The notes beneath the pieces were generated by a model. It made no database searches, had not been told where the DNA came from, and worked only from the letters and a program-made list of their open reading frames with translations. From Xanthomonas campestris pv. campestris str. ATCC 33913 (GTDB lineage: Bacteria; Pseudomonadota; Gammaproteobacteria; Xanthomonadales; Xanthomonadaceae): a stretch of 32,000 nucleotides of DNA. Location: positions 1,867,436 to 1,899,435 of the forward strand of contig NC_003902.1 in NCBI RefSeq assembly GCF_000007145.1. The letters are read 5' to 3'. Below, in pieces: positions 1,515 through 16,643 of the stretch (position 1 is its first letter; each line of letters begins with the position of its first letter). The translations under genes and the position numbers were made by a program.

Positions 1515-3479
1515 CTACACTTCGGACTCAGGCGGGGCGGTCACGGAATCATCAGCCCAGTCCATTGGCACTAGCGCCTTCCCGTTTCGCCAGCGCTCCA
1601 CGACTAGATCCTGATACCACGGCTCCTGAATGTCTGCGTGTTCCGTGATGATGACCTGCATGCGTGGAGACAGGTCCTGGACGACGTTAACAATCAGCCG
1701 GAAGATGCGAATCACGGCCAGGCGATCCTCATCCTCCTCGCCCACTTGGTTGACATCACGACCTTTTTCCGCCGGGAAGTAGACCTGTGACGGCTGGTCT
1801 AGGATCAGGAACCGCGGCACAGGACGTTCCCTGCGAACGAAAAATTCGTGTAAGGCAAGGAAGGCGATAAGATGGCAGCCGAGCCAAGTCTCACCGCTAC
1901 CCATTCGGCTCATGGGCACGGCACCGTCTTCCGTGTCGGCGACGACGATGAGCTTCTTCGGCTCAAGCCGGAAGGGGATTCCGGCGTGCTCCAGTTCTAA
2001 GAACGTCGCCCAGCGGGTCATCAGCGCTGCCACCCGGCTCATGGCCGAGGCGATACGCTCGCGAACGCTTTCGTCGCTGAGCTGCAACTCCAGTTCACTA
2101 ATCTGCCCAGAGAGAGCCTCGATAGTCTGGCGGAGCTGTTCGTTGTCTTTAGCGGTCGGGAGCGATTCCAATGTGAGGCTGATCCTACCCAACACATGTG
2201 CACGGCGAGAGGTGACCTCCCGCATCGACTGAAGCCGGGAGTCGGAGGCGCGCACGGCTTCAAGCGCAGCCCAGTTGCTTTTTAGAGATTCCTTGATGCC
2301 ATCGAGTTCCTTGCCTTTCTCCGAAATCAACGTGTCCAGACCCGGGGTGTGTCGACGGACGTTCTGGAGCTGTGTCCTCAATGACACGAGTTCTGCGCGC
2401 AGGTCCTTGGCAGATGGGACTGTCTCCGTCAGGGCATGGCTGCAAAGCGGACAGGTATGCTCGTCCTCATCGATGAGAATGATGCTCTCCAGTCGAGATA
2501 CCTGTTCCGCAGATTCTTTGGCGAAATTGCTGCCGTCCGTGCGCAGGCCCGACATTGACTGCAACTCATCGTTGACCAGATGAAGGCGGACACGCAACTC
2601 GGATCTCGTTGCAGTGAGCTGACTTAAGGCCAGTTGGTCAACCTCGGTCTCCGCGCGTGCGAGCTGGTCTTCAAACGGCGCAGTGGAAGCGACGCGCAAG
2701 GATTCCAGCATGTCCTGATAGCTTGCCCCTGAAGAGTCCGCGTCAATAAGTCCGGCCGACTTGGCTTCAGCTACCAGACCGTCGATTCGAGCCTCGCTGC
2801 TCAGCGACAGCGATCGGGAAAGTTCGGACTCCCTTAGTCGAAGCTCACGGCGCAGGGAGCGAAGTTTGGCCGATAGCTCCACGTGGTCGTGGTCCATCGC
2901 ACCAATAAAATAGGAAAACGTGTCCTTGATCCCCTGAGCGACGAAGTGATCGCCTTGCCCGTGGAACAGAAACCCAGGTTGGGAAATTTCCGTTTGCTTC
3001 TGGAAAACGTAGGCCAAAGCATGTCGGATGCTGGCCGACAGTGGGGCCCTAGTATGGCCCTCCGGCGGCACGTGTCGATGGGAGCCGATTCCAGTTGCCA
3101 GCTCGATACGTGCCATGACAGCGTCGATGTTGGTCGTAACCGACAGTTGTTCATAGCTGGGAACTGCGAGGATGCTGCCGGTAATGTAATAGGCGTCCCC
3201 GGTTGTCGTTTTCCCCTTGTCAGGCGCACGACGTGCCACGAAGTGTTCCTCCGTGCCATCGGTCAGTCGAAGACCATACCAGTGGATGGTTTTGGCCATT
3301 ATGCCGTGGGGTATTTCGCACGTCCCGCTGCCCAAACAATAATCGACGATGGTGATTAGCGACGATTTTCCTGTGCCGGACTCGCCGGTGATAATGTTCA
3401 CCTGACCTGGCTTCAGCGAAATGATTCGAGGTTTTCGGCCTGCATGGTAGATAACGATGTCGAGGATCTGGATGCTCAT
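1515..3479 (-). CDS. lmuB: Lamassu LmuB-like ABC/SMC-type ATPase (DUF3732-type; ABC-3C ATPase component)
   Basis: Walker A is GESGTGKSS. A long coiled-coil insert carries a central CPLC hook-like motif (nt 2440-2476). There is a GSGETW signature-like loop and a Walker B FLILDQPSQVYFP. ATG 3479 forms an ATGA overlap with the upstream gene's stop. Confidence 0.8.
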   Translation of the reverse strand: MSIQILDIVIYHAGRKPRIISLKPGQVNIITGESGTGKSSLITIVDYCLGSGTCEIPHGIMAKTIHWYGLRLTDGTEEHFVARRAPDKGKTTTGDAYYITGSILAVPSYEQLSVTTNIDAVMARIELATGIGSHRHVPPEGHTRAPLSASIRHALAYVFQKQTEISQPGFLFHGQGDHFVAQGIKDTFSYFIGAMDHDHVELSAKLRSLRRELRLRESELSRSLSLSSEARIDGLVAEAKSAGLIDADSSGASYQDMLESLRVASTAPFEDQLARAETEVDQLALSQLTATRSELRVRLHLVNDELQSMSGLRTDGSNFAKESAEQVSRLESIILIDEDEHTCPLCSHALTETVPSAKDLRAELVSLRTQLQNVRRHTPGLDTLISEKGKELDGIKESLKSNWAALEAVRASDSRLQSMREVTSRRAHVLGRISLTLESLPTAKDNEQLRQTIEALSGQISELELQLSDESVRERIASAMSRVAALMTRWATFLELEHAGIPFRLEPKKLIVVADTEDGAVPMSRMGSGETWLGCHLIAFLALHEFFVRRERPVPRFLILDQPSQVYFPAEKGRDVNQVGEEDEDRLAVIRIFRLIVNVVQDLSPRMQVIITEHADIQEPWYQDLVVERWRNGKALVPMDWADDSVTAPPESEV

Positions 3480-4006
3480 GGTCGCACGCCCCACAGGGCC
3501 ATAACGGTGGTGTAATCGCCAGCGGCCGCGAACCAGCGACCAGTGAAGTGGGCTTTCTGTATGCAGTCGGCCACTTCAGGTGTGGCGAAGTCGCGATAAT
3601 ACTTGTTGATCTTGCGCACATTTAATTCTGGAACAAGCCTATGCCCATCCATAGAAATCATTCTGCTCGACGCTGCGACCGCAATTGACTGCCGGACAAG
3701 TGGAGCGATGGCCTTAGCCCGATCGGCAAATCCAACCAAGGCAGATGGATGGACGCTCAGCCAAGCTGCCAAGCTAGTGCTGATGGCTCGGGGAAGGGCT
3801 TCACGCGTCACTTTTTGTAAGACCGTCGGCAAAGCAACAAATGCCAATGCATAGGGGAGACCGCTGCCGTCGCTTTCTTCTTCGTATCCTTTTGCGGCAC
3901 TGTAGATCAATGCTCCCAAGAACGCAGGGTTGAGTAGGCGGACTTGTTCCTGCGGCTGACGACGCCATAGAGGCTCAATGAGCCTCGGTTCACGGTGGAC
4001 GGTCAT
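3476..4006 (-). CDS. lmuC: Lamassu LmuC-like / ABC-3C middle component
   Basis: This 176-aa protein is sandwiched between the nuclease and ATPase genes and translationally coupled to both by ATGA overlaps at 4003-4006 and 3476-3479. Its size and position match middle components. I recognise no independent motif. Confidence 0.6.
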   Translation of the reverse strand: MTVHREPRLIEPLWRRQPQEQVRLLNPAFLGALIYSAAKGYEEESDGSGLPYALAFVALPTVLQKVTREALPRAISTSLAAWLSVHPSALVGFADRAKAIAPLVRQSIAVAASSRMISMDGHRLVPELNVRKINKYYRDFATPEVADCIQKAHFTGRWFAAAGDYTTVMALWGVRP

Positions 4007-5217
4007 GCCGCGACTCCTGGAATTGCGAGGAGGTGTCGGAGTCTGGCTTCAAATTCTGGGTGCCAGCCAATGCGCAACTCATTGGCCATCATGTGCAAGG
4101 ATCCGCGACAGATGCTGGGGTGGTCGACGTTCTTCCGGATAGGAAGGCACGCGGATTCCACCCACTTGAAAACCGCGCGTGCCATTTTTTGTTGCTCTTC
4201 CTCTGCTGCCCCAGGGCCAAGATCGTCCAGTGCCTGGGCAAACGAAATTTCCCATTCTTCGTGGAGCGTGCGCTCGTATTTTTCTAAGTCACCCACCAGT
4301 ATCAAGTGCTCCCGCACCCAGCGAGACCGCTGCTCAAAGGCCCGGTAGTAGTCTCTGACCGCAGCAAGAACACGCGAGTGGTGAGCCCCTGTCAACCTTG
4401 CTTGGTGCACAAACAACTCGCTCTCGTAGCTGGAAATCTCTACCTCATGCTCAAATATGTCGTCATCGACGGGTAGAGCGCTGACCAGTTGGTGACGAAG
4501 GTCGTCCATCTGCGCCTGCAGGGCAGAGCAGCGCAACGGCTCTTTGGATTTCCCAACCAAGTGCCTCAAGCATTGAGTGAACCACCATCCCTCCAAGCGA
4601 CTGACGAAAGACTCCACATGATCCCGTCGAACAGTGAAGCGGACCTCGTGTCGAATGTCCTCACCCACCTGTTCAATGTTGGGTTGATTGGGCGCAATGA
4701 CGACGGAGGCAACGAGAGCCTTTTGTTCTTCTGAACTCAATGCTTTGAAAGCGGTGTAAGCGGCGGCGTTTTCAACGTTTACCGATGTTTGTGCAACGTT
4801 TCGCAGGGCCGTGAGCGCAGCATCCTCATCGCGATTCATTGCTAGAAGCTTGCTGGCAATCGAACCCTTGCCCACCATTTGTGTAGTGATGAGCACCAAG
4901 CGATCAAGTGGCGTGACGGTCCCAGACTTCCTCCCTTCGATCCATACGCGCAGCGACTTCCAGATGTCCGGAGAGGCATCGGTAAGATTCGCTTGCGCGT
5001 TGGAGTGGTGCTTGAGCTGAAAAAGCTCAAGAGGCGTCCCGGTCTTTTCAAAGACGACGTCGTCCAGCGTCTCCAAGAAGATCGAGAAATCGTCGTCGTC
5101 TGCGGGGTTGATGCGGCGCAAGGCGGTCAGAAGCGCCATGCGGATCTGATAGAGGTATCCCAGCGCTGAGTCGCCAGCGCCAAACGCAGTGTTCGTCCCT
5201 GCAGTCGACCCCGTCAT
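4003..5217 (-). CDS. lmuA: Lamassu LmuA-like effector with N-terminal Cap4/DUF4297-type PD-(D/E)xK nuclease domain
   Basis: The N-terminal motifs GYLYQIRMAL, FLETLDDVVFE and LFQLKHH match the Cap4-type dsDNA nuclease pattern. It is the first gene of a three-gene coupled operon. Confidence 0.75.
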   Translation of the reverse strand: MTGSTAGTNTAFGAGDSALGYLYQIRMALLTALRRINPADDDDFSIFLETLDDVVFEKTGTPLELFQLKHHSNAQANLTDASPDIWKSLRVWIEGRKSGTVTPLDRLVLITTQMVGKGSIASKLLAMNRDEDAALTALRNVAQTSVNVENAAAYTAFKALSSEEQKALVASVVIAPNQPNIEQVGEDIRHEVRFTVRRDHVESFVSRLEGWWFTQCLRHLVGKSKEPLRCSALQAQMDDLRHQLVSALPVDDDIFEHEVEISSYESELFVHQARLTGAHHSRVLAAVRDYYRAFEQRSRWVREHLILVGDLEKYERTLHEEWEISFAQALDDLGPGAAEEEQQKMARAVFKWVESACLPIRKNVDHPSICRGSLHMMANELRIGWHPEFEARLRHLLAIPGVAA

Positions 5218-5403
5218 CGGTCCCCCATTCCTTGGCTATTAATTACGTCCTGCCAGTCTGAGCGACAGAGCGTGGATCGCATCCTCGCACGAATGTGACA
5301 TGGGGCCAACGCTGGAGCGAAAGGAGGATTGTCCGGCTAATTGGGGATAGCTTCTTGAGGAGCGGCGGCCTCAACAGCGACGCAATACCGGCAATCCATG
5401 GAG

Positions 5404-5456: not shown

Positions 5457-5837
5457 TCAGCGGGTCAGCTGAAGCCACAACACCAGCAGCACCATGGGGA
5501 GTCCGCTGAGCACCGAGCTGCCCCAGAAAGCCCCCATCACGGTCAGCGGGGTCATCACCCACCACTGCCACCAGCTGAAGCCACGATCGCGCTGGCGGGC
5601 CATGTGAGCCTCGAAAGCGTAGAGGCGCTCTGCTTTTCGCAAACCTCGCCGAGCCATGAGCGGCCCAACGATAAAGCCGAATGGGCCCAAGAAGAGCAGG
5701 CTGAGCGAGAACCACCAGAAGAATCGGTTGTGCGGGGTGGTCACCTTTTTAGGGGCAGCGCGCATGACGACGTCTTCGCGGAAGCCGCCCACAGCGCCGG
5801 CTGAAGTTCCCACCATCGAATCGGGTTGGGTTTTCAT
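5457..5837 (-). CDS. Small integral membrane protein (two hydrophobic segments)
   Basis: Hydrophobic segments are FFWWFSLSLLFLGPFGFIVGPL and WWVMTPLTVMGAFWGSSVLSGLPMVLLVLWL. It overlaps the upstream lipoprotein gene by 4 bp (5834-5837). Confidence 0.6.
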   Translation of the reverse strand: MKTQPDSMVGTSAGAVGGFREDVVMRAAPKKVTTPHNRFFWWFSLSLLFLGPFGFIVGPLMARRGLRKAERLYAFEAHMARQRDRGFSWWQWWVMTPLTVMGAFWGSSVLSGLPMVLLVLWLQLTR

Positions 5838-6148
5838 TTGGCGTAGGCCCTCCAGGTGCCGTCGCTCTTGGCGTAGCGCAGGTTCTTGCTCACGGGGATG
5901 GGCACTTGCCGGCCTCCGATGTCGATCGCCACCTTGCCCCTCGTGTCGCAGCGATAGCCGTCGACGCCCTCCGCCTCAACGCAGCCGGTGAGCTCGAAAT
6001 TCTGAACGTCGGTGACTTGGCCGGCGCCGCTGTCTTGAAGCAACCGGACAAAGGCCTCTTTGGCATTGTCAGACGAAGGCTTGCCGCCGCAGGCGGTCAG
6101 GCCCAGGGCCATGGTCAACGCGACCAGGCCGATCCTTGCGTGTTTCAT
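5834..6148 (-). CDS. Small lipoprotein
   Basis: The signal peptide has a lipobox (MKHARIGLVALTMALGLTAC-GG). It is coupled to the downstream membrane-protein gene. Confidence 0.7.
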   Translation of the reverse strand: MKHARIGLVALTMALGLTACGGKPSSDNAKEAFVRLLQDSGAGQVTDVQNFELTGCVEAEGVDGYRCDTRGKVAIDIGGRQVPIPVSKNLRYAKSDGTWRAYAK

Positions 6149-6193
6149 GTCTGTCCTTTGAGAGCGAGAGGGATTGGGAAGTAGGAGGCCGGG

Positions 6194-6955
6194 TTACTTG
6201 TCGCGGTTCCCGTCGGGCTTGAACCCCGCTATCCACATCCGTGTGTCCTTGAAGGGCGTCAGCAAGCCGCTGGGTCCTGGGTGCAGGTCGGCGATCTGGA
6301 TAAAGCCGGCTACCCAAGCGATGCGCAGCGACACGTCCACGGCCCGGTCAGCGACGCCAGGCCGGCTCACATTGACCACGAACGGCTGAGCCGGCGGGTT
6401 GGGGCCCGTAGACCGCTGAGCGCCCGTGTTGGGCTTGCTGGGCGGCACGCGAATGCCGTTGAGGACATCCCGGCCTTTCCAAAGAGCCGACGTGTTGAGC
6501 TCGGCCGTCTCACCCAGGTCATCGGTCTCCGTTACGGCGGCATCGAAGCAGGTCCGGAAGGTCTCGACGCTCGACACGTTCGGGCTGGTCCAGATGCGCG
6601 CTTCAGCCGTCCAGCAGGGCAGGGATGCACCCCACTCGGTAAAGGTCAACGCGACTCGGGGCCAGTCCAACTTCCCGAGCTGGGCCTGCTGGTGGTTGTC
6701 AGTCTTGAAGAGGTTGGGCAGCCTTCCGGCGCCGCTGGTGGGCGCGTAGATCGAGCCAGTTCCCTGGCTGCCGGCCTTGGTGCCGGCGTTCGGCTTGAGG
6801 CCGACCATCTGCTTGCCCGTGTCGGCCAAGCCCTTGCCGAGCTGACGAAAGAAGCCGGTCTTTTGTTCCGGCACGTCTTGAGCGTGGGCAGTGAACGGCG
6901 AGATGAGCGTCAACGCCAAGAGCGCAGCGAACGCTCCTTGTCCTGTGTGCTTCAT
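6194..6955 (-). CDS. Secreted protein of unknown function
   Basis: Starting at ATG 6955 gives MKHTGQGAFAALLALTLISPFTAHA-QD, a typical Sec signal peptide, with an AGGGG Shine-Dalgarno about 9 nt upstream. The annotated longer ORF (to 6991) adds an unlikely extension. Confidence 0.65.
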   Translation of the reverse strand: MKHTGQGAFAALLALTLISPFTAHAQDVPEQKTGFFRQLGKGLADTGKQMVGLKPNAGTKAGSQGTGSIYAPTSGAGRLPNLFKTDNHQQAQLGKLDWPRVALTFTEWGASLPCWTAEARIWTSPNVSSVETFRTCFDAAVTETDDLGETAELNTSALWKGRDVLNGIRVPPSKPNTGAQRSTGPNPPAQPFVVNVSRPGVADRAVDVSLRIAWVAGFIQIADLHPGPSGLLTPFKDTRMWIAGFKPDGNRDK

Positions 6956-7066
6956 ACGAAAAGCCCCTGTAGACCGCCGGTCTGGCAGCATTTACGATAA
7001 TCGCAGATGAGTCGCCCGCTTCCAAGCGGCACACTGAGGAAATTCAGCTTTCGTGCAATCTTCTCG

Positions 7067-7408
7067 ATGCCCAAACCTAAGACACCGGCCACGGTCTATG
7101 GCACGCGTCTGCGCCATGCGCGGATGGCCATGGGCTGGACACAAGCCGAGCTGGCGGAGCGCATTGGGATGGTGGACTCGGTGTCGGGAGCCACGCGCGT
7201 GAGCCGCTACGAGACGGGGCAACATGACCCGGACCCTGCGACGGCTGAGGCACTAGCGAAGGCGTTGAAGCTGCCTGTGGCCTATTTCCACGCAACGTCA
7301 GACGTGCTGGCCGACATCATCTTGATTGTGTCGCGGTTGCCCGTCGCGAAGCAGAAGGAGGCCTTGGAGCGACTCAAGGATCTTGCAGGCAAGCACTCCG
7401 GCGAATAA
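7067..7408 (+). CDS. XRE/Cro-C1 family helix-turn-helix transcriptional regulator
   Basis: YGTRLRHARMAMGWTQAELAERIGM...VSRYETGQHDPDPATAEALAKALKLPVAYF is a canonical XRE HTH. The start is uncertain (7007 or 7067). It is divergent from the envelope operon and upstream of the CHAT-like gene. Confidence 0.75.
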   Translation: MPKPKTPATVYGTRLRHARMAMGWTQAELAERIGMVDSVSGATRVSRYETGQHDPDPATAEALAKALKLPVAYFHATSDVLADIILIVSRLPVAKQKEALERLKDLAGKHSGE

Positions 7409-7568
7409 CGGAGATAGTTGAGCCTGTGATGACCGATGCTTGGCCGAATCTCAGGCAATGAGATAGTCCAAGCCTAGGATTAGGAATAAGGGATATTGCC
7501 GCACCGGACACCAACGGGTGTTCCGACTTGGTGCGAGCACTGCCTCTAACCTGCATCGAGGAAATCCA

Positions 7569-8642
7569 ATGTCAGTCGACCAGCGCCGTAGGGATGTCGA
7601 AAGACATCAAAAGGAAATAGCCCGGCTCCAGACCGAAAAATCTCGAGAAGAGACCAAGGCCGTTGGGGAGAAGAAGAAGGCGTTCGATGCGTCGGCGGCC
7701 GCAACTCGGACAAAGTCTGTTTCCACACAGCAGTCGAAGCTGCGCGAGGCCCAGCGCTACGAAGGCAATGCCGTCGCAATTCAAAAGAAGATAGCTGACC
7801 TTGAGACGAAGATAGCCCGGGAGCATGAGCGATTAGGAAATGCCAACCGGCAGCTTTCCGCAGCGCAAGTTCAGGAGCAAAAGAAGCAAGTCCAGGAGGA
7901 CAAGAAAAGAGATGCTGAGCGTAAGCGGGCAATGGCCGCGAGCGCGCAAGAGCTCTCTAGGGTCCAAGGCCGTCTTACGCACCACGACCATTTACACCGA
8001 AGCACTGAGGCTACTTTGCAGCGGTTACAGGAGTTGCCAGAGCTGTTAACGGTGCTGTTCCTGGCCTCCAATCCCATTGACCAACAGCAGCTTCGGCTTG
8101 ACGAGGAGGCCAGGTCCATCCACGAAATGGTGCGGAAGTCCGAACACCGTGATGTGGTGAAATTGGAGTCCAGGTGGGCGGTCCAGCCGTTGGACGTGCT
8201 TCAGGCCATCAACGAATGCAGGCCGGGCGTTGTGCACTTCAGCGGTCATGGATCGGAAGAAGATGACATCTTGTTCCAAGACAGCGTTGGCCGGTCCAAG
8301 CTGGTCAGTAAGGAAGCCATCGTGCAAACGATGATGGCGGGGTCTGGCGATATCCAGCTTGTCTTCTTCAACACTTGTTTTTCCCATGGCCAAGCCGCTG
8401 CGATCGTGGAGCATGTGCCCTGCGCGATTGGGATGAATACGTCCATCGGCGATCAGGCCGCTCGCGTTTTCGCCGCCCAGTTTTATTCGGCGGTAGGGTT
8501 TGGGCTATCGGTAGCGGGGGCGTTTGAGCAGGCTAGGGCGGCCCTGATGCTTGAATGGATTCCTGAGGCGCATACGCCCGAACTCTTCGCTGGGCCCGGA
8601 GTGGATCCATCCCAAGTGTTTCTGGTCAGGCCCCCGGGTTAA
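7569..8642 (+). CDS. Coiled-coil protein with a C-terminal minimal CHAT/caspase-like domain
   Basis: A GAGGAAA Shine-Dalgarno sits 6 nt before ATG 7569. The N-terminal ~170 aa are K/E/Q-rich heptads. The C-terminal LFLASNPIDQQQLRLDEEARSI...VVHFSGHG...LVFFNTCFS...IGMNTSIGDQAA shows the His/Cys dyad pattern of CHAT-type peptidases. Confidence 0.7.
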   Translation: MSVDQRRRDVERHQKEIARLQTEKSREETKAVGEKKKAFDASAAATRTKSVSTQQSKLREAQRYEGNAVAIQKKIADLETKIAREHERLGNANRQLSAAQVQEQKKQVQEDKKRDAERKRAMAASAQELSRVQGRLTHHDHLHRSTEATLQRLQELPELLTVLFLASNPIDQQQLRLDEEARSIHEMVRKSEHRDVVKLESRWAVQPLDVLQAINECRPGVVHFSGHGSEEDDILFQDSVGRSKLVSKEAIVQTMMAGSGDIQLVFFNTCFSHGQAAAIVEHVPCAIGMNTSIGDQAARVFAAQFYSAVGFGLSVAGAFEQARAALMLEWIPEAHTPELFAGPGVDPSQVFLVRPPG

Positions 8643-8806
8643 AACTACGTCCCAAGCGCAGGGGCGGGTCCCATAAATCCTACTTGGCTCTTCAGAGATG
8701 GATAGCTACCCCAGCCGCTCCGCTCACGACCTCAACAGCGGGCCACGCGGGATGCTACGTTTGTTTAAGAATCCGACGTGCGCGCCGATAGGGACAGTGC
8801 CTGCTG

Positions 8807-8864
8807 ATGCGTGAGGACAAGGACGTGAGGAAGACGCTTATATTTGGAAACGGGCTAGGAATGG
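8807..8864 (+). pseudogene. 5' fragment (19 codons) of the SIR2-like gene, cut off by the IS3-family insertion
   Basis: ATG 8807 is the first start after an in-frame TAG at 8789. It encodes MREDKDVRKTLIFGNGLGM, containing the Gly-rich N-terminal loop expected of SIR2_2/DUF4917-type proteins. The frame rejoins 10069 onward once the IS is removed. Confidence 0.7.
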
Positions 8865-8938
8865 TGTCGACTCCCCGTAAAATTGATCCATCCATAACTA
8901 GAGGTCTCCGGGCACACTAGCCACCAAGGAGACCACCA

Positions 8939-9205
8939 ATGCGCAAGAGCAAGTTCACCGAGAGCCAGATCGTCGCCACGCTGAAGCAGGTCGAGGGCGG
9001 TCGCCAGGTCAAGGATGTCTGTCGCGAGCTGGGCATTTCCGATGCGACGTACTACGTCTGGAAGTCCAAGTACGGCGGCATGGAGGCCGCTGACGTGCAA
9101 CGCCTCCGCGACCTGGAGACTGAGCACAACAAGCTCAAACGTATGTACGCCGATCTCGCGATGGAAAACCATGCATTGAAGGATGTCATCGCAAAAAAGC
9201 TGTAG
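8939..9205 (+). CDS. IS3-family transposase OrfA (HTH)
   Basis: MRKSKFTESQIVATLKQVEGG...YYVWKSKYGGMEAADVQRLRDLETEHNKLKRMYADL is the typical IS3/IS407 OrfA with a leucine zipper. Confidence 0.9.
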   Translation: MRKSKFTESQIVATLKQVEGGRQVKDVCRELGISDATYYVWKSKYGGMEAADVQRLRDLETEHNKLKRMYADLAMENHALKDVIAKKL

Positions 9206-10047
9206 ACCCGGCGCATAAGCGCCCGCTTCTTGCCTGGCTCATCGAGCAGCATGGCTGGAGCGAGCGCCGGGCTTGTGCGGTGGTTGGCGTGGCTCGCTCG
9301 ACAGCACGTTATCGGCGCCGTCCCGATCGGGATGAGGAGGTTATTGCGCTGTTGTCCGAGTTGGCCGAGCGTTTTCCCGAGCGCGGATTTGGAAAGCTTT
9401 TTCAGATCATCCGTCGTCGCGGACATCTGTGGAATCACAAGAGGGTCTGGCGCGTGTACTGCTTGATGAAACTCAATCAACGTCGCCGCAGCAAGCGCCG
9501 GGTACCGACGCGTCATCCACAGCCGCTGGCATGCGGTGATCGACCCAACGCTGGATGGTCGATCGATTTCATGTCTGATGCGCTATGGGATGGTCGACGG
9601 TTCCGCACGTTCAATGTCATCGACGATTTCAGTCGGGAAGCCTTGGCCATCGATGTGGACCTGAATCTTCCGGCTGCCCGCGTCATCCGCACGTTGGAAC
9701 GTATCGCAGCTTGGCGCGGCTATCCGAACAAGCTGCGTTTGGACAATGGCCCGGAATTTGTTGCATTGGCCTTGGCCGAGTGGGCTGAGCGCAAGGGTAT
9801 CGCGTTGGATTTCATCGAGCCGGGGCGTCCGATGCAGAACGGTTTTATCGAACGCTTCAACGGCAGCTACCGGCGTGGCGTATTGGATATGCACATATTC
9901 CGCACGCTGAGCGAGGTCCGCGAACAGACCGAACAGTGGCTGGCCGACTACAACCAACAAATACCGCACGACAGCCTGGGCGGGCTAACGCCCGCCGAGT
10001 TCCGTGAGCAACATCAACCGCAGACCTCTAGCTTTATCTGGCATTGA
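9193..10047 (+). CDS. IS3-family transposase OrfB (DDE integrase core), expressed as an OrfAB fusion by -1 frameshift
   Basis: The slippery heptamer AAAAAAG is at 9193-9199. The -1 frame reads KKAVDPAHKRPLLAWLIEQHGWSERRACAVVG..., continuing into an rve-type core (WSIDFMSD..., NGPEF..., ESFNG-like IERFNGSYR). Confidence 0.85.
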   Translation, partial: KKAVDPAHKRPLLAWLIEQHGWSERRACAVVGVARSTARYRRRPDRDEEVIALLSELAERFPERGFGKLFQIIRRRGHLWNHKRVWRVYCLMKLNQRRRSKRRVPTRHPQPLACGDRPNAGWSIDFMSDALWDGRRFRTFNVIDDFSREALAIDVDLNLPAARVIRTLERIAAWRGYPNKLRLDNGPEFVALALAEWAERKGIALDFIEPGRPMQNGFIERFNGSYRRGVLDMHIFRTLSEVREQTEQWLADYNQQIPHDSLGGLTPAEFREQHQPQTSSFIWH

Positions 10048-10994
10048 ATTGCGGGGAGTCGACATTGGCTCTTGACCCAACCCTGTTCTCGCTCGACGAG
10101 GCGATCGGACGGGCATGGGAAGGCGAAGGGATCTTTGATGCAGAGACGCGGGCCTTGGTTCGCTGCTGCCTAATGGATGATGGCGATACAGAGCGACCTC
10201 ACGGAGAGGGCGACCTAGACGCGCTTCAACTGGTGGTCTCGTCATGTGACTTCTTGGATCGGATGAGTCAAGGCGGTGCACATTGGCTCAGCGACCATGG
10301 GCAAAGATTTCCTGCCGCAGTGCGCAAGTTTCTTTATCAGACGGCACTCCAGTTCCACCGGAGGGATGTGCTCCTTCCGCTAGAGTTCGCTCAGCCGCTG
10401 GCCGCCTTTCTTCATGAGACCCACTCGCACGTCGCGACCCTTAACTACGACAACCTGCTGTATCAGCGAATGATTGAGGCGCATGTCCTCAGCGGATACG
10501 ACGGCGCGTTGGTTGACGGTATGCTGGGACGTGGCTTCTCGCCGGAGAACCTGGAGCGGAAATGGGGGCGAACTTTCGGCTACTACCTTCATCTACATGG
10601 TTCCCCACTGTTCATCGACCAGGACGACATCGTCCGAAAGTTGCAGCAGGGAGAGCTTGGTGGAGACGATGATGTAGTTGGCTCCCACATCGTGCTGACT
10701 CATGTCAAACACAAGCCCACGGTCATCGCCGCATCAGCGCTCTTGCAGAGCTATTGGCAGCACCTGGAGTCGGCCTTGGAGGAGTCCAACGAGGTCATAT
10801 TGTTTGGCTATTCCGGACTGGATACCCATCTCAATGAGCTGTTGGAGCGACGGTCACCGGAACGCATCCGCGTGGTGGAATGGGATGGTTCCGGTGAACA
10901 GGCAAAAAGAGAGGTCTTTTGGAAAAAAGCGCTAGGCAAGGAAACAGCTGTCACGCGAATGGAGAGCATCCTGGCGTTCGCCGATTGGGGCTGA
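10044..10994 (+). pseudogene. 3' portion of the SIR2-like (SIR2_2/DUF4917-type) NADase-family gene, separated from its start by the IS
   Basis: Motifs are HVATLNYDNLLYQ (catalytic Asn region), YYLHLHGSPLF (catalytic His region) and VILFGYSGLD. The first 7 codons of the tracked ORF are IS-derived. Native sequence starts at about 10066. Confidence 0.7.
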
Positions 10995-11138
10995 GAGGTA
11001 TGTCCAAAGTCGGCGTGAATGCCTAGGCGGCGGTGGCGCTGGCCGCGCGCTGCGAGCCGGAGGGTTGCAACCTCTTGCAAATCTAGCCTTCCCTCATAGT
11101 GATTTTCTTGGATCAAATTGTGGGTCCACATCCACTAG

Positions 11139-12297
11139 GGATGGTCTGATCAACGGCGTCGGAGGATGAGCCCAACTACATCGGCCAGGCTGACGGCGCT
11201 CAGATCCTCGATTTTTTTGCCGTTTCCGGCGCGTTTGCAGGGTGTTGCCTGCGTTACAGGCGCACGCTCCCCATAGCAGGCAATAACTGCTTTCGCTTCA
11301 TCCACAGGTTTGACAGCGCAAACAGCGTCAGCACCTGCGCGGTGTTCTTCGCCAGGCCGCGATAGCGGACCTTGGTGTAACCGAACTGGCGCTTGATCAC
11401 CCGGAACGGATGCTCCACCTTCGCACGCACGCTGGCCTTGAAGTGTTCCCAGCGCTGTTCCCGAGCACGCTCCCGCTTGTTGCCGATGGCTTGAAGCACC
11501 GAACGCTTGGCAGCAATGAAAAATGCAGCCTCGCAGTCCTGCAGTTCTTCGCGCTTATCCGCACCGGTGTAGCCGCTGTCGCCAAACACGCTGTCTTCTT
11601 TGCCATGCAGCAATGCGTGCGTCACCGTGACATCGGCGACGTTGGCGGCTGTGCAATGGACGTGGTGCACCAACCCGGAAAATTCATCCACGCCGATGTG
11701 CGCCTTCATCCCGAAATACCACTGATTGCCCTTCTTGGTCTGATGCATCTCAGGGTCGCGCGCATGGTCGGCGTTCTTGGTCGAACTGGGCGCCGCGATC
11801 AGCGTCGCATCGACGATCGTGCCCGACCGCAGGCTCTGGCCCTTGCGCGCCAGATGCGCGTTGACCGCTTCCAGCATCCGCGCGGCAAGGCCATGGGTCT
11901 CCAGCAGGCGGCGAAAGTTGAGAATCGTGGTCTCGTCCGGAACGTTGTCCAAGCCACCGAGCTGGGCAAAGCGCCGCAAGGTCGGGATCTCGTGCAGTGC
12001 TTCTTCCATCGCCGGATCGCTCAACGCATACCACTGCTGCAGCAGATGAATCCGCAACATCGTCGCCAGTGCGTACGGCTGCCGACCTGGCCGCCCCGAG
12101 ACCGGATAGTGCGGCGCGACCAGCCCGAGCAGTTGCTGCCACGGGACGACCTGCTCCATCTCGGCCAGAAAGATCTCCCGGCGCGTCTGCTTGCGCTTGC
12201 CCAGGCCCTCAGCGTCACCGAACGTCAGTTGCATGGATCACCCCTCAACATCAGGCGGGTAGTGTCGCGTATCTGTGGTGCGTTGTTCAGAGGTTCC
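11139..12297 (-). mobile_element. IS5-family insertion sequence, 1159 bp, with a CTAG target-site duplication
   Basis: Imperfect terminal IRs are GGATGGTCTGATCAACG (11139-) and the complement of CGTTGTTCAGAGGTTCC (-12297). A perfect 4-bp direct repeat CTAG lies at 11135-11138 and 12298-12301. Confidence 0.85.
11254..12234 (-). CDS. IS5-family DDE transposase
   Basis: The 326-aa protein has the typical IS5-group sequence: MQLTFGDAEGLGKRKQTRREIFLAEMEQVVPW...DATLIAAPSSTKN...GMKAHIGVD...GDSGYTG...VEHPFRVIKRQFGY. Confidence 0.9.
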   Translation of the reverse strand: MQLTFGDAEGLGKRKQTRREIFLAEMEQVVPWQQLLGLVAPHYPVSGRPGRQPYALATMLRIHLLQQWYALSDPAMEEALHEIPTLRRFAQLGGLDNVPDETTILNFRRLLETHGLAARMLEAVNAHLARKGQSLRSGTIVDATLIAAPSSTKNADHARDPEMHQTKKGNQWYFGMKAHIGVDEFSGLVHHVHCTAANVADVTVTHALLHGKEDSVFGDSGYTGADKREELQDCEAAFFIAAKRSVLQAIGNKRERAREQRWEHFKASVRAKVEHPFRVIKRQFGYTKVRYRGLAKNTAQVLTLFALSNLWMKRKQLLPAMGSVRL

Positions 12298-13048
12298 CTA
12301 GGTCAAATTTGATAATTTTAGCTTTAGGGAATAACCGTCGCGCAATTTCTCTAATCTCTTTCTGCAAGACGGGGATTGACTCATCGCTTTGATAGACGTG
12401 ATACCGCATAGTGGTAACGAGATTTACCGCGGATTCCAGGACTTGCTCACCCAGATTTGCTTTCAGATCTTTGTAACTGTAAGCGGCCCCTCTTGCCAGG
12501 GTGGAAGCTGCAAATGCAGGCTGAAACTCATCTAAGCAGTGCTTTGCTCTCAAGCGAGTAGCGACAAGTGTTTGGTCGAATCGTAATTGCTCAATGTGAA
12601 TTTTAAAAATGAGGTTCGGATCTGATGAATCGATTAGGAAATCCAAATCATCGATTTTTTGAGAAAGCCCTATGGTATCCGGAGGAACAAAGGCGTTCAT
12701 TCCGAGGGCGCAGTCCACGTCTTTTTCGAACTTGTCTAGTTCTTTTTTCATGGTTCTTATTTCGTTGTGCTGAGCGCCTAAAACCAGTAGCGACCGATTA
12801 ATTGCCGAAATTCGTCGCTGAACCTCCTTTTCCAACTCGCGACGTTCACCTAGTCGGAAGGCAAACTGCGCGCCGAAAAACGTGCTTAGAAGCGCAAGGA
12901 GCGCTAGGGCGAGGTCTTTTGATTGGATTTCCCCTGCCCATGCGAGAGTTGCTATGCAACCGGAGGCAGCCACGACGGCAAGGACATAGATCCAAGGTGC
13001 AAGTCGTGACTGTCTATTCATTTCTCTATTTTCTGGGGATGGGCGCAT
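12287..13048 (-). CDS. Low-GC membrane protein of unknown function (two N-terminal TM helices plus a helical domain); 3' end altered by IS5
   Basis: TM segments are LAPWIYVLAVVAASGCIATLAWA and LALALLALLSTFFGAQFAF. The last 3 codons and the stop lie in the IS5 terminus. Without the IS the frame continues 13 codons to a TGA at 11094-11096. The likely start is ATG 13021. Confidence 0.55.
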   Translation of the reverse strand: MRPSPENREMNRQSRLAPWIYVLAVVAASGCIATLAWAGEIQSKDLALALLALLSTFFGAQFAFRLGERRELEKEVQRRISAINRSLLVLGAQHNEIRTMKKELDKFEKDVDCALGMNAFVPPDTIGLSQKIDDLDFLIDSSDPNLIFKIHIEQLRFDQTLVATRLRAKHCLDEFQPAFAASTLARGAAYSYKDLKANLGEQVLESAVNLVTTMRYHVYQSDESIPVLQKEIREIARRLFPKAKIIKFDLGNL

Positions 13049-14711: not shown

Positions 14712-14892
14712 GATTGAATTCCGAAAGGGTGGAGAAGGAAGGGTGGAGAAGGGCGTTGAGGTTTGAGCCGGCTGCGTCAGTCGTTTGGCCTCCGTCTTCA
14801 GTTGCCCAACAACGGGGGTCGAAGCAGGCGACATAGCGGTGGCGACAGCACCGCAACAAGGTTGCAAAACCGGACATCAGGGCAGGGCACGG

Positions 14893-16284: not shown

Positions 16285-16290
16285 TGCTTG

Positions 16291-16311
16291 CTTCCATTGT
16301 TTCAATGGAAG
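16291..16311 (-). promoter_or_regulatory. Perfect 9-bp inverted repeat (CTTCCATTG-TTT-CAATGGAAG) covering the integrase Shine-Dalgarno
   Basis: I read it directly from the sequence. The proximal arm contains the GGAAG SD, 7 nt before ATG 16284. Confidence 0.4.
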
Positions 16312-16643
16312 TAGTGATAATCCAGCCCGGAAATTCGTCAATCAAAAAGAGCAATTTTTTACTTTTCCTGAAGCAAACTCTACCGTAAAGGCCTAGCCTG
16401 AAATTCCGCCAAAATTATTATGTCTGGTTTAAGTGCGGTGGTCCTATATAATTCAATGGTTTAGCGGCGCGTCGGGGAATGATTTCGAGTGGTTTGCCCT
16501 GTCATTATTGTACTGTTTAATGCAAATAGGCTAACTAAATAGGCCTGCATGTTAGTTTTTAAGGTGTACCGTTCCTAAATGACTTGATCAAATGTTAGTA
16601 TTATCTAGGTAGATAAAGCAGCCAAAAACGGGAGTTAACTAAC

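What the first reader, a model, noticed from the sequence alone, without database searches (positions are those of the whole stretch)
7067..10994. Candidate undescribed conflict module: XRE regulator, coiled-coil CHAT/caspase-like protein and a short SIR2-like NADase-family protein
Three co-directional genes sit in a defense-island context, directly beside a Lamassu operon and among IS elements.

- The 357-aa protein (7569-8642) joins a ~170-aa K/E/Q-rich coiled coil to a minimal CHAT-type domain. That domain has the caspase-like dyad context VVHFSGHG and LVFFNTCFS, and the LFLASNP...LRLDEEARSI lead-in typical of stand-alone CHAT modules.
- The downstream gene, once the IS is removed, encodes a ~328-aa SIR2_2/DUF4917-like protein. 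It has a Gly-rich loop (LIFGNGLG), the Asn motif TLNYDNLL and the His motif HLHGS, which are the residues used by ThsA- and DSR-type NAD+ depleting effectors.

I know of no named defense system that pairs a coiled-coil CHAT protease with a short SIR2 lacking SLOG, TIR, HerA or Ago partners. A protease-gated or protease-partnered NADase under an XRE repressor is a plausible abortive-infection design. Two caveats apply. A 164-nt gap separates the two genes. The SIR2-like gene is insertionally inactivated here.
Basis: partly seen in the sequence, partly recalled or inferred. Interest (0 to 1): 0.8.

Follow-up and report, generated by a model that had tools for sequence, protein, structure and literature searches.

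The report
Two separate defence-candidate genes, not one module
The three genes are real, but the protease-like and the (transposon-broken) NAD-consuming-enzyme-like genes are independent single-gene immunity candidates parked side by side in the cargo bay of a Xanthomonas genomic island, not a coupled protease-plus-NADase system.

Summary
XRE (7067-7408), a coiled-coil-CHAT gene (7569-8642) and a short SIR2-fold gene split by an IS3-family element (8865-10065) lie co-directionally beside a complete Lamassu operon.

The domain calls hold:
- The CHAT hit passes Pfam's threshold. Its His/Cys dyad is invariant, and its best structural match is the SAVED-CHAT filament.
- The SIR2 model best matches the SIR2 of SIR2-HerA.

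The proposed three-gene module is not supported:
- The CHAT-SIR2 pair occurs only in one Xanthomonadaceae integrase-bounded island lineage.
- Within that lineage either gene also occurs intact alone behind the same XRE: XRE-CHAT in X. arboricola and S. acidaminiphila, XRE-SIR2 in S. maltophilia.
- Outside it, 0 of 80 CHAT loci carry the SIR2. Of 80 SIR2 loci, only 2 same-island loci and 1 coincidental neighbour carry a CHAT gene.

The CHAT protein's N-terminal helical domain is a swappable module. It is also fused to TIR (PADLOC's untested single-gene candidate PDC-S66), SEFIR and a kinase. That points to a self-contained sensor/assembly-plus-effector protein.

The SIR2 gene stands alone in core-genome, type I RM-type and reverse-transcriptase contexts. 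In this window it is a pseudogene.

Interest is moderate.

The parts
1515..5217 (-). Context: complete Lamassu operon. LmuB is 1515-3494, LmuC is 3476-4006, and LmuA (Cap4-nuclease/CTD7 type) is 4003-5217. It occupies the island's left-hand cargo slot.
   Evidence: PADLOC gives LmuB E 4e-133, LmuC E 2e-13 and LmuA E 2e-65. Pfam gives DUF3732, MC3, CTD7 and Cap4_nuclease. In related islands this slot holds NYN, patatin or a ThsB-like TIR instead.
5457..6991 (-). Three conserved island-backbone genes of unknown function: 126 aa (membrane), 104 aa (lipoprotein-like) and 265 aa (signal peptide). They are divergent from XRE.
   Evidence: tblastn finds all three, in the same order, next to XRE in L172/3, L174, L175, L176, L091, L100 and L004-8. 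They have no Pfam or PADLOC hit.
7067..7408 (+). XRE-family HTH regulator of 113 aa (an upstream ATG at 7007 would give 133 aa). It resembles an RM controller (C) protein and heads the right-hand cargo array.
   Evidence: Pfam HTH_31 E 2e-13 and HTH_3 E 5e-13. PADLOC Control_protein E 4e-16 over nearly the full length. It is present upstream of CHAT, of SIR2, or of both in related islands. It is absent from most distant CHAT loci.
7569..8036 (+). N-terminal helical (coiled-coil hairpin) domain of the CHAT protein, residues 1 to about 156. Putative sensor/assembly module.
   Evidence: The AF2 model has helices 3-47 and 51-154 at pLDDT about 90. It matches positions 1-134 of PADLOC PDC-S66 (E 3e-17). 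The same domain is fused to TIR, SEFIR and a protein kinase in other proteins.
8040..8642 (+). Compact CHAT (caspase-fold) protease domain, residues about 158-357. Catalytic His227 is at codon 8247-8249 and Cys270 at codon 8376-8378.
   Evidence: Pfam CHAT scores 28.8 bits against a cut-off of 24. H227 and C270 are invariant in 70 homologues. A sequence profile hits 8TL0 at E 1.6e-23. The fold search hits 8TL0 at E 1e-12 and then caspases and separase.
8643..8824 (+). CHAT-SIR2 intergenic region (182 nt). It is conserved in the pair-carrying islands and has a conserved RBS before GTG 8825.
   Evidence: Alignment A7 of six loci. No sigma-70-like promoter or terminator consensus was found. No Rfam family matched.
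8825..8864 (+). 5' fragment of the short SIR2-fold gene. It carries the Gly-rich loop FGNGLG.
   Evidence: The start is set by homologue lengths (321 aa) and alignment A7.
8865..10065 (+). IS3-family insertion sequence that disrupts the SIR2 gene. orfA is 8939-9205 and orfB is 9280-10047. The TGG target duplication is at 8862-8864 and 10066-10068.
   Evidence: Inverted repeats are at 8865-8880 and 10049-10064. The element is 92-97% identical to annotated Xanthomonas IS3-family transposase copies.
10069..10994 (+). 3' fragment of the SIR2-fold gene. It carries the Asn/Asp motif LNYDN, the His motif HLHGS and GYSGxDxHLN.
   Evidence: These residues are invariant in 68 homologues. The AF2 model has pLDDT 88. 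Its best PDB matches are the SIR2 of SIR2-HerA (8WLD, 8SUB), the FAM118B filament and CobB.
11135..12290 (-). IS5-family element IS1646, inserted between the SIR2 gene and the next island gene.
   Evidence: Pfam DDE_Tnp_1 and DUF772. It is 99% identical to annotated X. campestris IS1646 copies. It is absent from the otherwise 98%-identical locus L174.
12287..13048 (-). 253-aa membrane-type protein of unknown function. It is shared with the X. campestris island L174.
   Evidence: 98% identical by tblastn in L174. No Pfam or PADLOC hit.
14893..16341 (-). Tyrosine recombinase (integrase) that closes the island's right-hand cargo bay.
   Evidence: Pfam Phage_integrase E 2e-10. Homologous integrases (463-475 aa) lie in the same position in L003-8, L174, L175, L176, L091 and L100.

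Best explanation
The finding covers part of the right-hand cargo bay of an integrase-bounded genomic island of Xanthomonadaceae. The host here is probably Xanthomonas campestris.

**Island layout**
- A conserved backbone holds three small secreted or membrane genes, with a divergent XRE gene beside them.
- Two variable slots flank the backbone.
- In this window the left slot holds Lamassu.
- The right slot holds a string of independent cassettes: a coiled-coil-CHAT gene, a short SIR2 gene that is now knocked out by an IS3-family element, an IS5 element and a small membrane protein. An integrase closes the slot.

**CHAT protein (inferred mechanism)**
- It is a self-contained single-polypeptide candidate abortive-infection protein.
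- Its roughly 155-residue N-terminal helical hairpin is the sensing or assembly module.
- Trigger-dependent oligomerisation through that domain would bring the compact CHAT domains together and switch on the His227/Cys270 protease. This is how SAVED-CHAT is activated by filament formation.
- The active protease would then cleave host or phage proteins.

**SIR2 protein (inferred mechanism)**
- It is a separate stand-alone SIR2-fold enzyme, most likely an NAD+-degrading effector.
- It would be activated by self-assembly, as in SIR2-HerA or FAM118B filaments.
- In this genome it is a pseudogene.

**XRE (inferred mechanism)**
- It is a C-protein-like controller at the head of the cargo array.
- It probably sets expression of whichever toxic cassette follows it. 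It is not a dedicated component of a CHAT-SIR2 system.

**Shown versus inferred**
- Shown: gene anatomy, folds, conserved catalytic residues, the island architecture, the independent distribution of the genes and the domain swapping.
- Inferred: defence function, activation by oligomerisation, NADase activity and XRE's regulatory target.
For: **Independent distribution**
- Intact XRE-CHAT without SIR2 occurs in X. arboricola L175 (CHAT 87%, XRE 99%) and S. acidaminiphila L004-8.
- Intact XRE-SIR2 without CHAT occurs in S. maltophilia L172/3, on the same backbone.
- SIR2 stands alone among core genes in X. vasicola and in contigs L089/L090, which are 83% identical.
- In L089/L090 the DNA homology to the window starts and stops at the ORF ends.
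- 0 of 80 CHAT loci from other phyla carry the SIR2, by tblastn and by profile at E <= 1. Of the 38 loci with the full-length architecture, 33 have at least 1.2 kb downstream.
- Only 3 of 80 SIR2 loci have any CHAT neighbour. Two belong to the same island. The third (L102) is a different CHAT fusion whose homologue P0365 occurs in six contexts without SIR2.

**The CHAT protein is self-contained**
- Its N-terminal domain is found fused alternatively to CHAT (19), TIR (8), SEFIR (1) or a protein kinase (1) among 46 hits.
- The TIR fusions are PADLOC's single-gene candidate PDC-S66 at full length, E 5e-103.
- A recombination breakpoint between the window and X. arboricola falls at the N-domain/CHAT junction.

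**Folds and residues**
-.

**Island architecture and slot variability**
-.
- Other single-gene candidates follow SIR2 in related islands: KAP NTPase (PDC-S49) and DUF3800.

**Defence-type neighbours elsewhere**
- Near CHAT homologues: IetS, PARIS AriA, SoFic, type I RM S subunits and AbiEii.
- Beside SIR2 homologues: a YgjP-like metallopeptidase with large (~1,000-aa) unscanned ORFs nearby, and reverse transcriptases.
- PDC candidates were originally defined by being embedded in RM, BREX or DISARM loci (bioRxiv 10.1101/2024.01.29.577857).
Against: - Within the Xanthomonadaceae island the CHAT-SIR2 pair and its 164-182-nt spacer persist across roughly 25% protein divergence, in at least five pair-carrying loci beyond the window. 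A lineage-specific functional coupling is therefore not excluded.
- The XRE-CHAT-SIR2-p253 block is about 98% identical between the window and L174, while the backbone to its left is only about 80% identical. These genes therefore move together as a recombination unit.
- No experiment shows defence, protease or NADase activity for any member of either family. PDC-S66 and PDC-S21 are untested.
- The SIR2 match to PDC-S21 is weak (29 bits), and SIR2_2 falls just under Pfam's threshold.
- My neighbour gene calls in the fetched loci are crude ORF calls.
- The samples are capped at 80 loci per family, so rare recurrent pairings elsewhere could be missed.
Confidence: 0.68

Rival explanations
1. Lineage-specific functional pair. 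In the Xanthomonadaceae island the coiled-coil CHAT protease and the short SIR2 have become partners. For example, CHAT could process or license the SIR2 NADase, or both could answer the same trigger, with XRE repressing the operon.
For: - The pair, in the same order and with a conserved spacer, recurs in the window, L174, L176, L091, L100 and L001/2 across 76-98% CHAT identity.
- The block is exchanged en bloc between Xanthomonas strains.
- One unrelated contig (L102) again places a SIR2 of this family 100 nt from a CHAT-domain protein.
Against: - Each gene is retained intact without the other in the same island family and elsewhere.
- No co-occurrence appears in 80 CHAT loci of other phyla, even at profile level.
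- Homologues of the L102 CHAT fusion lack SIR2 neighbours.
- The CHAT protein's domain-swap pattern is that of a self-sufficient protein.
- In this window CHAT stays intact while SIR2 is IS-disrupted.
Confidence: 0.14
2. XRE-CHAT is a dedicated two-gene unit (regulator or antitoxin-like controller plus toxic protease), and SIR2 is a separate neighbour. XRE would belong to the CHAT cassette and not to the island backbone.
For: - XRE lies directly upstream of CHAT in the window, L174, L175, L176, L091, L100 and L004-8.
- XRE, the spacer and the CHAT N-domain form one 95-100% identical block between X. campestris and X. arboricola.
- XRE-like genes lie within about 400 nt of CHAT homologues in 4 distant loci.
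Against: - The same XRE (84%) heads a SIR2-only array in S. maltophilia with no CHAT.
- 34 of 38 distant full-length CHAT loci show no adjacent XRE homologue.
- L001/2 keeps CHAT-SIR2 without XRE.
Confidence: 0.3
3. Neither gene is an immune gene. The SIR2-fold protein would be a protein deacylase or ADP-ribosyltransferase, as reported for the DUF4917 sirtuin SliP of Campylobacter jejuni. The CHAT protein would be a housekeeping or developmental protease. Their island location would be incidental.
For: - A DUF4917 protein has reported deacetylase activity (PMC10421069).
- X. vasicola and X. oryzae keep the SIR2 among core metabolic genes.
- Neither family has experimental defence data.
Against: - The window protein scores only 17 bits on DUF4917, against a cut-off of 28.
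- The closest structures are anti-phage SIR2 (SIR2-HerA) and FAM118B, not classical sirtuins.
- Both genes sit in variable cargo slots beside Lamassu, ThsB-like TIR, patatin, NYN and KAP NTPase genes.
- Homologues lie next to RM, PARIS, Iet and AbiE genes.
- The N-domain is shared with TIR/SEFIR fusions typical of immune effectors.
Confidence: 0.1

Closest known systems
PADLOC PDC-S66, an untested single-gene 'phage defence candidate' (Payne et al., bioRxiv 10.1101/2024.01.29.577857)
   Same: It has the same roughly 150-residue N-terminal helical domain (E 3e-17 over model positions 1-134). It has the same two-domain plan, with the effector at the C-terminus. It is likewise a single-gene candidate.
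   Different: The C-terminal effector of PDC-S66 is a TIR domain (P0307 and P0332 match the model at full length). Here it is a CHAT protease, so only the first half of the model matches.
SAVED-CHAT protease of type III-B CRISPR/CBASS-type signalling (PDB 8TL0)
   Same: It is the closest CHAT domain by sequence profile (E 1.6e-23) and by fold (E 1e-12, TM about 0.46 over about 205 residues). It is a compact caspase-fold domain that is activated when its N-terminal domain drives filament assembly.
   Different: The N-terminal domain here is a helical hairpin, not a cyclic-oligonucleotide-binding SAVED domain. There is no CRISPR, cyclase or PCaspase partner nearby, and the trigger is unknown.
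SIR2 subunit of the SIR2-HerA anti-phage system (PDB 8WLD, 8SUB)
   Same: It is the best structural match to the short SIR2 (TM about 0.6, probability 1.0). It is of similar size (about 340 aa) and has no fused sensor domain. It is a NAD+-degrading effector that works in a higher-order assembly.
   Different: There is no HerA gene next to it in any locus examined. Sequence identity is only about 15%. The gene occurs alone in many contexts.
PADLOC PDC-S21, an untested single-gene candidate of the short SIR2/DUF4917-like type
   Same: It is of similar length (model 336 positions) and gives a collinear match over positions 102-302 (E 1e-7). It is also predicted to act as a single gene.
   Different: The match is weak (29 bits). 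Other family members score equally low. This is therefore a related but distinct family.
Type IV Thoeris (TIR + caspase-like protease; bioRxiv 10.1101/2024.10.24.620036)
   Same: A caspase-fold protease acts as the executioner effector in bacterial immunity, alongside an NAD-processing enzyme class.
   Different: That protease has an N-terminal caspase domain plus a C-terminal ligand-binding domain, and it needs an adjacent TIR gene. Here the order is reversed, the partner domain is a coiled coil, and no TIR gene is adjacent in the window.

Membership tests
CHAT / caspase-fold proteases (Pfam PF12770) | Profile score above Pfam's gathering threshold | tested here: met
   28.8 bits against a cut-off of 24, residues 168-327.
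CHAT / caspase-fold proteases (Pfam PF12770) | Conserved catalytic His-Cys dyad | tested here: met
   H227 (HFSGHG) and C270 (FFNTC) are invariant in the 70- and 62-sequence alignments.
CHAT / caspase-fold proteases (Pfam PF12770) | Caspase/hemoglobinase fold | tested here: met
   AF2 model pLDDT 84. Foldseek hits 8TL0 at E 1e-12, then caspases 3, 7 and 9 and separase.
CHAT / caspase-fold proteases (Pfam PF12770) | Proteolytic activity | not testable with these tools
   Needs biochemistry.
SIR2 superfamily (SIR2_2, PF13289) | Profile score above Pfam's gathering threshold | tested here: not met
   23.6 bits against a cut-off of 24.5. Many homologues do carry precomputed PF13289 or PF16263 hits.
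SIR2 superfamily (SIR2_2, PF13289) | SIR2 Rossmann-type fold | tested here: met
   AF2 model pLDDT 88, pTM 0.88. Foldseek matches the SIR2 of SIR2-HerA at TM 0.54-0.61, then FAM118B, CobB and Sir2Af2.
SIR2 superfamily (SIR2_2, PF13289) | Gly-rich NAD loop and catalytic Asn/Asp and His motifs | tested here: met
   FGNGLG, LNYD and HLHGS are invariant in 68 homologues. Their equivalence to ThsA N112/H152 rests on motif knowledge, not on a structural superposition done here.
DUF4917 (PF16263) | Profile score above the gathering threshold | tested here: not met
   17.3 bits against a cut-off of 28.
PADLOC PDC-S66 | Full-length match to the model (N-terminal helical domain plus TIR) | tested here: not met
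   Only model positions 1-134 of 282 match. True members match positions 1-280 and carry TIR.
PADLOC PDC-S21 | Strong full-length match to the model | tested here: inconclusive
   E 1e-7, 29 bits, positions 102-302 of 336. PADLOC gives no curated cut-off in this tool.
Thoeris type I (ThsA SIR2-SLOG + ThsB TIR) | SLOG domain fused to SIR2 and an adjacent TIR gene | tested here: not met
   The protein is a 321-aa SIR2 domain only. There is no TIR gene among the window neighbours. A ThsB-like gene exists in Stenotrophomonas islands, but 2.7 kb away on the other strand.
Type IV Thoeris (TIR + caspase-like) | Two-gene TIR-caspase operon, with a protease carrying a C-terminal sensor domain | tested here: not met
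   There is no adjacent TIR gene. The protease domain is C-terminal, behind a coiled coil.
SIR2-HerA | Adjacent HerA ATPase gene | tested here: not met
   The genes next to SIR2 are IS elements and a 253-aa protein here. In relatives they are KAP NTPase, DUF3800, TetR or an integrase. None is HerA.
SAVED-CHAT (CBASS / type III CRISPR effector) | N-terminal SAVED sensor domain | tested here: not met
   The N-terminus is two long helices with no SAVED hit.
Multi-gene defence module (operon-level system) | Conserved co-occurrence and adjacency of the component genes across lineages | tested here: not met
   0 of 80 CHAT loci have the SIR2. 3 of 80 SIR2 loci have a CHAT neighbour (two same-island, one coincidental). 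Either gene occurs alone within the island lineage.
Lamassu (neighbouring system, context only) | LmuA effector, LmuB SMC-like ATPase and LmuC | tested here: met
   PADLOC gives LmuA E 2e-65, LmuB E 4e-133 and LmuC E 2e-13.

The most novel reading that the evidence does not exclude
The roughly 155-residue N-terminal helical domain defines a widespread, experimentally untouched family of single-protein immune sensors. The same assembly or sensing module drives interchangeable executioner domains: CHAT protease, TIR, SEFIR or a Ser/Thr kinase. The CHAT version would be a stand-alone bacterial 'caspase' activated by coiled-coil-mediated oligomerisation. A further, less likely reading is that in Xanthomonadaceae this protease has acquired the neighbouring short SIR2 as a client.
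Probability: 0.35. Interest if true: 0.6.

Novelty: new variant of a known kind. Interest (0 to 1): 0.38.

Why it matters
If the three genes had formed a protease-gated NADase, that would have been a new immune logic. The evidence says they do not, so that claim should not be carried forward.

**What remains useful**
- The Xanthomonadaceae island has a fixed backbone and two cargo slots, which makes it a natural place to mine for new single-gene defences.
- The CHAT protein shows that PADLOC's untested PDC-S66 architecture is one member of a larger effector-swapping family (CHAT, TIR, SEFIR, kinase). This gives a clean comparative system for asking how a coiled-coil module senses infection and switches on unrelated effectors.
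- The short SIR2 family (at least 880 relatives at E <= 0.001) is barely captured by current defence databases. An intact copy to test exists in X. campestris GCA_003410215.1.

Neither protein has any experimental support yet.

Tried and rejected
- **Phage search.** tblastn of the CHAT protein against 50,697 phage records found nothing. A phage-borne origin has no support.
- **Staphylococcus plasmids.** These looked like a possible PDC-S66 source, but the hits are 141-aa CHAT fragments and uninformative.
- **Literature.** Searches for 'CHAT domain + anti-phage + SIR2' returned no paper. Searches for PDC-S21 and PDC-S66 returned only genome surveys and the untested-candidate preprint.
- **PDB sequence search for SIR2.** The profile search gave only spurious de novo TIM-barrel hits. 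The fold search was needed instead.
- **Regulatory signals.** Promoter/terminator and inverted-repeat scans of 6900-8900 gave nothing above the shuffled expectation. Operon structure could not be settled.
- **RNA genes.** Rfam and tRNA scans of the window were empty.
- **L102 lead.** I first suspected that L102 (SIR2 next to a CHAT-plus-C-terminal-domain protein) revealed a recurrent SIR2-CHAT signalling pair. I rejected this because the fusion's homologues sit in six other contexts without SIR2. Its C-terminal domain is itself swapped onto TIR.
- **Type IV Thoeris idea.** I considered it because a ThsB-like TIR lies in Stenotrophomonas islands. I rejected it on architecture, on distance and strand, and because the TIR is absent from the window.

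Full report
**1. What is in the sequence**

The ORF map and direct reading confirm three co-directional genes.
- An XRE-type HTH gene runs 7067-7408. An upstream ATG at 7007 is possible, but Stenotrophomonas homologues of 111-113 aa favour 7067.
- A 357-aa gene runs 7569-8642.
- A gene further downstream is interrupted by an insertion sequence.

The IS has 16-nt terminal inverted repeats at 8865-8880 and 10049-10064. It has a TGG duplication on both sides. It is 92-97% identical to annotated Xanthomonas IS3-family transposase elements. Deleting 8865-10068 restores one reading frame of 327 aa from the ATG at 8807.

Homologues are 321 aa long. An alignment of the upstream region in six loci shows that the ATG is not conserved, whereas an AAGGA Shine-Dalgarno sequence and GTG 8825 are. 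The real product is therefore 321 aa and the gap to the CHAT gene is 182 nt. An uninterrupted copy that is 98% identical exists in X. campestris (L174).

**2. Domain identities**

*XRE.* Pfam assigns HTH_31 and HTH_3. PADLOC's best hit is the restriction-modification 'control protein', E 4e-16 over nearly the full length.

*CHAT.*
- Pfam CHAT scores 28.8 bits against a gathering score of 24.
- His227 and Cys270 are invariant in 70 homologues.
- A family profile hits PDB 8TL0 at E 1.6e-23.
- The AlphaFold model (pLDDT 84) has two long helices (3-47 and 51-154) followed by a caspase-type alpha/beta domain.
- Foldseek ranks the activated SAVED-CHAT filament first (E 1e-12), then caspases, separase and DdvA.

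*SIR2.*
- SIR2_2 scores 23.6 bits, just below its cut-off of 24.5. DUF4917 scores 17 bits against a cut-off of 28.
- The model (pLDDT 88, pTM 0.88) matches the SIR2 subunit of SIR2-HerA at TM about 0.6. It also matches the human FAM118B filament, CobB and archaeal Sir2.
- The FGNGLG, LNYD and HLHGS motifs are invariant in 68 homologues.

**3. The setting is the cargo bay of a genomic island**

- Upstream on the minus strand lies a complete Lamassu operon: LmuB, LmuC and a Cap4-nuclease-type LmuA.
- Next come three small genes of 126, 104 and 265 aa with no family assignment.
- Downstream of the SIR2 gene lie IS1646, a 253-aa protein, an integrase-like 331-aa ORF and a 482-aa tyrosine recombinase.

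Related loci show the same skeleton. A DUF6538-type integrase comes first, then a variable slot. Then come the same three minus-strand genes and XRE on the plus strand. A second variable slot follows, closed by a roughly 466-aa integrase on the minus strand.
- The first slot holds Lamassu here. Elsewhere it holds NYN, patatin or a ThsB-like TIR gene.
- The second slot holds the genes of this finding.

**4. Test of the module hypothesis**

The second slot varies within the island lineage.

| Locus | Organism | Slot content |
|---|---|---|
| L174 | X. campestris | XRE-CHAT-SIR2 |
| L176, L091, L100 | Stenotrophomonas sp. S39 and two metagenome contigs | XRE-CHAT-SIR2-KAP NTPase (the last gene is PADLOC PDC-S49) |
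| L175 | X. arboricola | XRE-CHAT, no SIR2 (XRE 99%, CHAT 87%) |
| L004-8 | S. acidaminiphila | XRE-CHAT, then the integrase directly |
| L172/3 | S. maltophilia | XRE-SIR2-147 aa-DUF3800, no CHAT (XRE 84%, SIR2 78%) |
| L001/2 | metagenome contigs (organism not given) | CHAT-SIR2-DUF3800. A remnant beside the same LysR gene that flanks the island in L176, with the left part of the island deleted |

Further evidence outside this table:
- X. vasicola carries the SIR2 alone between a TonB-dependent receptor and a TetR gene. A related X. oryzae cluster has many members.
- In contigs L089 and L090 (83% identical), homology to the window begins and ends at the SIR2 ORF boundaries.
- A scan of one genome per species returned 80 CHAT loci from Acidobacteria, Bacteroidota, Chloroflexi, Firmicutes, cyanobacteria, Pseudomonas and others.
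- None of them carries this SIR2, by tblastn or by a family HMM at E <= 1. Thirty-three of the 38 full-length-architecture loci have at least 1.2 kb downstream.
- A metagenome scan for the SIR2 family returned 80 loci. Forty-one have at least 1.3 kb upstream.
- Only L091 and L100 (the same island) and L102 contain a CHAT gene.
- L102 encodes a different protein, with an N-terminal CHAT domain plus a roughly 270-aa C-terminal domain.
- Its homologue P0365 occurs in six contexts, none with a SIR2. Its C-terminal domain is elsewhere fused to TIR.
- No other recurrent partner emerged from clustering the ORFs of at least 80 aa within 3 kb.

Conserved co-occurrence, the defining property of a multi-gene system, is therefore not met.

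**5. The CHAT protein is self-contained**

Its N-terminal 134 residues match the first half of PADLOC PDC-S66. A search of 1.84 billion representative proteins with residues 1-160 found 112 relatives.
- Among the 46 that are at least 220 aa long, Pfam finds CHAT in 19, TIR in 8, SEFIR in 1 and a protein kinase in 1.
- The TIR fusions match PDC-S66 end to end (E 5e-103).
- PDC-S66 is one of 145 untested candidates that were defined by being embedded inside RM, BREX or DISARM loci.

The domain is thus a portable N-terminal module that carries alternative toxic effectors. This is the usual signature of a single-protein sensor-effector.

A sliding identity profile fits this picture. The window and X. 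arboricola are 95-100% identical from about 6900 to about 8000, which covers XRE, the spacer and the N-domain. Identity then drops to 70-80% exactly where the CHAT domain begins, and it vanishes after the stop codon.

Neighbours of distant family members include IetS, AriA, SoFic, type I RM specificity subunits and AbiEii.

**6. The SIR2 protein**

It is a bare SIR2 domain with no sensor and no constant partner.
- A YgjP-like metallopeptidase sits 11-12 nt upstream in three loci.
- Reverse-transcriptase genes sit 39-150 nt upstream in two loci.
- KAP NTPase or DUF3800 genes follow it in island variants.

Its nearest structures are defence-type SIR2 enzymes that act in large assemblies. The most economical inference is an NAD+-consuming effector that works alone or plugs into different contexts. 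A deacylase role, as for the DUF4917 sirtuin SliP (PMC10421069), is a minor alternative. In this window the gene is a pseudogene.

**7. XRE**

It accompanies the backbone in every island variant, whichever gene follows it. It is missing from 34 of 38 distant CHAT loci. The 95-100% block shared with X. arboricola shows that it travels with the CHAT N-terminus. A dedicated XRE-CHAT relationship is therefore a live alternative (confidence 0.3). The S. maltophilia XRE-SIR2 arrangement argues that XRE controls whatever cassette lies downstream, in the manner of RM C-proteins. Scans found no promoter or terminator consensus that would settle the transcription units.

**8. Comparison with known systems**

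- The CHAT domain works most like SAVED-CHAT, in which assembly-driven activation switches on a compact CHAT domain. The window protein lacks the SAVED domain.
- The architecture is the CHAT variant of PDC-S66.
- The SIR2 is nearest to the SIR2 of SIR2-HerA, without HerA. It is weakly related to PDC-S21.
- It is not Thoeris type I (no SLOG and no adjacent TIR). It is not type IV Thoeris, whose protease has the reverse domain order and needs a TIR partner.

**9. Verdict**

The locus is best read as adjacent independent cassettes, one of them inactivated. The novelty lies in an unvalidated effector-swap family, and in the island as a hunting ground for new defences. It does not lie in a new multi-gene immune logic. 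Interest is 0.38.

Noticed in passing
window 6900-8650 versus L175 (X. arboricola): Nucleotide identity is 95-100% across XRE, the spacer and the CHAT N-terminal domain (about 6900-8000). It then drops to 70-80% at the start of the CHAT domain and disappears after the stop codon. The recombination breakpoint lies at the domain junction inside the gene.
   Followed up: partly
window 7569-8048 (N-terminal domain); proteins P0241-P0352: The N-terminal helical domain is shared with proteins whose C-terminus is TIR, SEFIR or a PD-T4-6-like Ser/Thr kinase. Examples are P0307 and P0332 (which are PADLOC PDC-S66), P0327 (SEFIR) and P0274 (kinase, 689 aa).
   Followed up: yes
L102 2703-5208: A SIR2 of this family (52% identical) lies 100 nt upstream of a 470-aa protein made of an N-terminal CHAT domain plus an unassigned roughly 270-aa C-terminal domain. 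That C-terminal domain is fused to TIR, PF19960 or PF13271 in other proteins. Homologues of the fusion occur without SIR2.
   Followed up: yes
window 5457-6991 (minus strand): Three small genes (membrane, lipoprotein-like and signal-peptide proteins) have no Pfam or PADLOC hit. They are the most constant part of the island and always lie divergent from XRE. Their function is unknown.
   Followed up: partly
L091 7012-8835, L100 7009-8832, L176 9219-11042: A 607-aa KAP-NTPase-like gene (PADLOC PDC-S49, E 2e-36) follows the SIR2 gene after only 28-31 nt in three island variants. It is absent from the window and from L174.
   Followed up: partly
L001 10275-11285; L172 8550-9557: A DUF3800 protein (about 335 aa) recurs downstream of the SIR2 gene in two different arrangements: CHAT-SIR2-DUF3800 and XRE-SIR2-147 aa-DUF3800.
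   Followed up: no
L126 4844-5851, L153 4543-5679; L149, L150, L167: Distant SIR2 homologues sit 39-150 nt downstream of reverse-transcriptase genes (RVT_1). Others sit 11-12 nt downstream of a YgjP-like metallopeptidase, with large (~1,000-aa) ORFs nearby (not family-scanned). This suggests retron/DRT-like and type I RM-type contexts.
   Followed up: partly
L172 3297-4310; L004-L008 about 4300-5270: A ThsB-like TIR/Y4lF protein (PADLOC ThsB E 2e-142) occupies the left cargo slot of the Stenotrophomonas islands, with no recognisable ThsA next to it.
   Followed up: no
window 11135-12290: IS1646 (IS5 family, 99% identical to X. campestris plasmid copies) is inserted between the SIR2 gene and the 253-aa gene. 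Together with the IS3 insertion this marks recent IS activity in the island.
   Followed up: yes
window 13872-14867 (minus strand): A 331-aa ORF gives 29-34% tblastn matches to the integrase region of related islands but has no Pfam hit. It may be a degenerate second recombinase in tandem with the 482-aa integrase.
   Followed up: no
window 24690-28706: A 1338-aa ORF lies in a stretch of high G+C (0.63-0.67) with a strongly positive AT skew (up to 0.44). I did not examine it.
   Followed up: no
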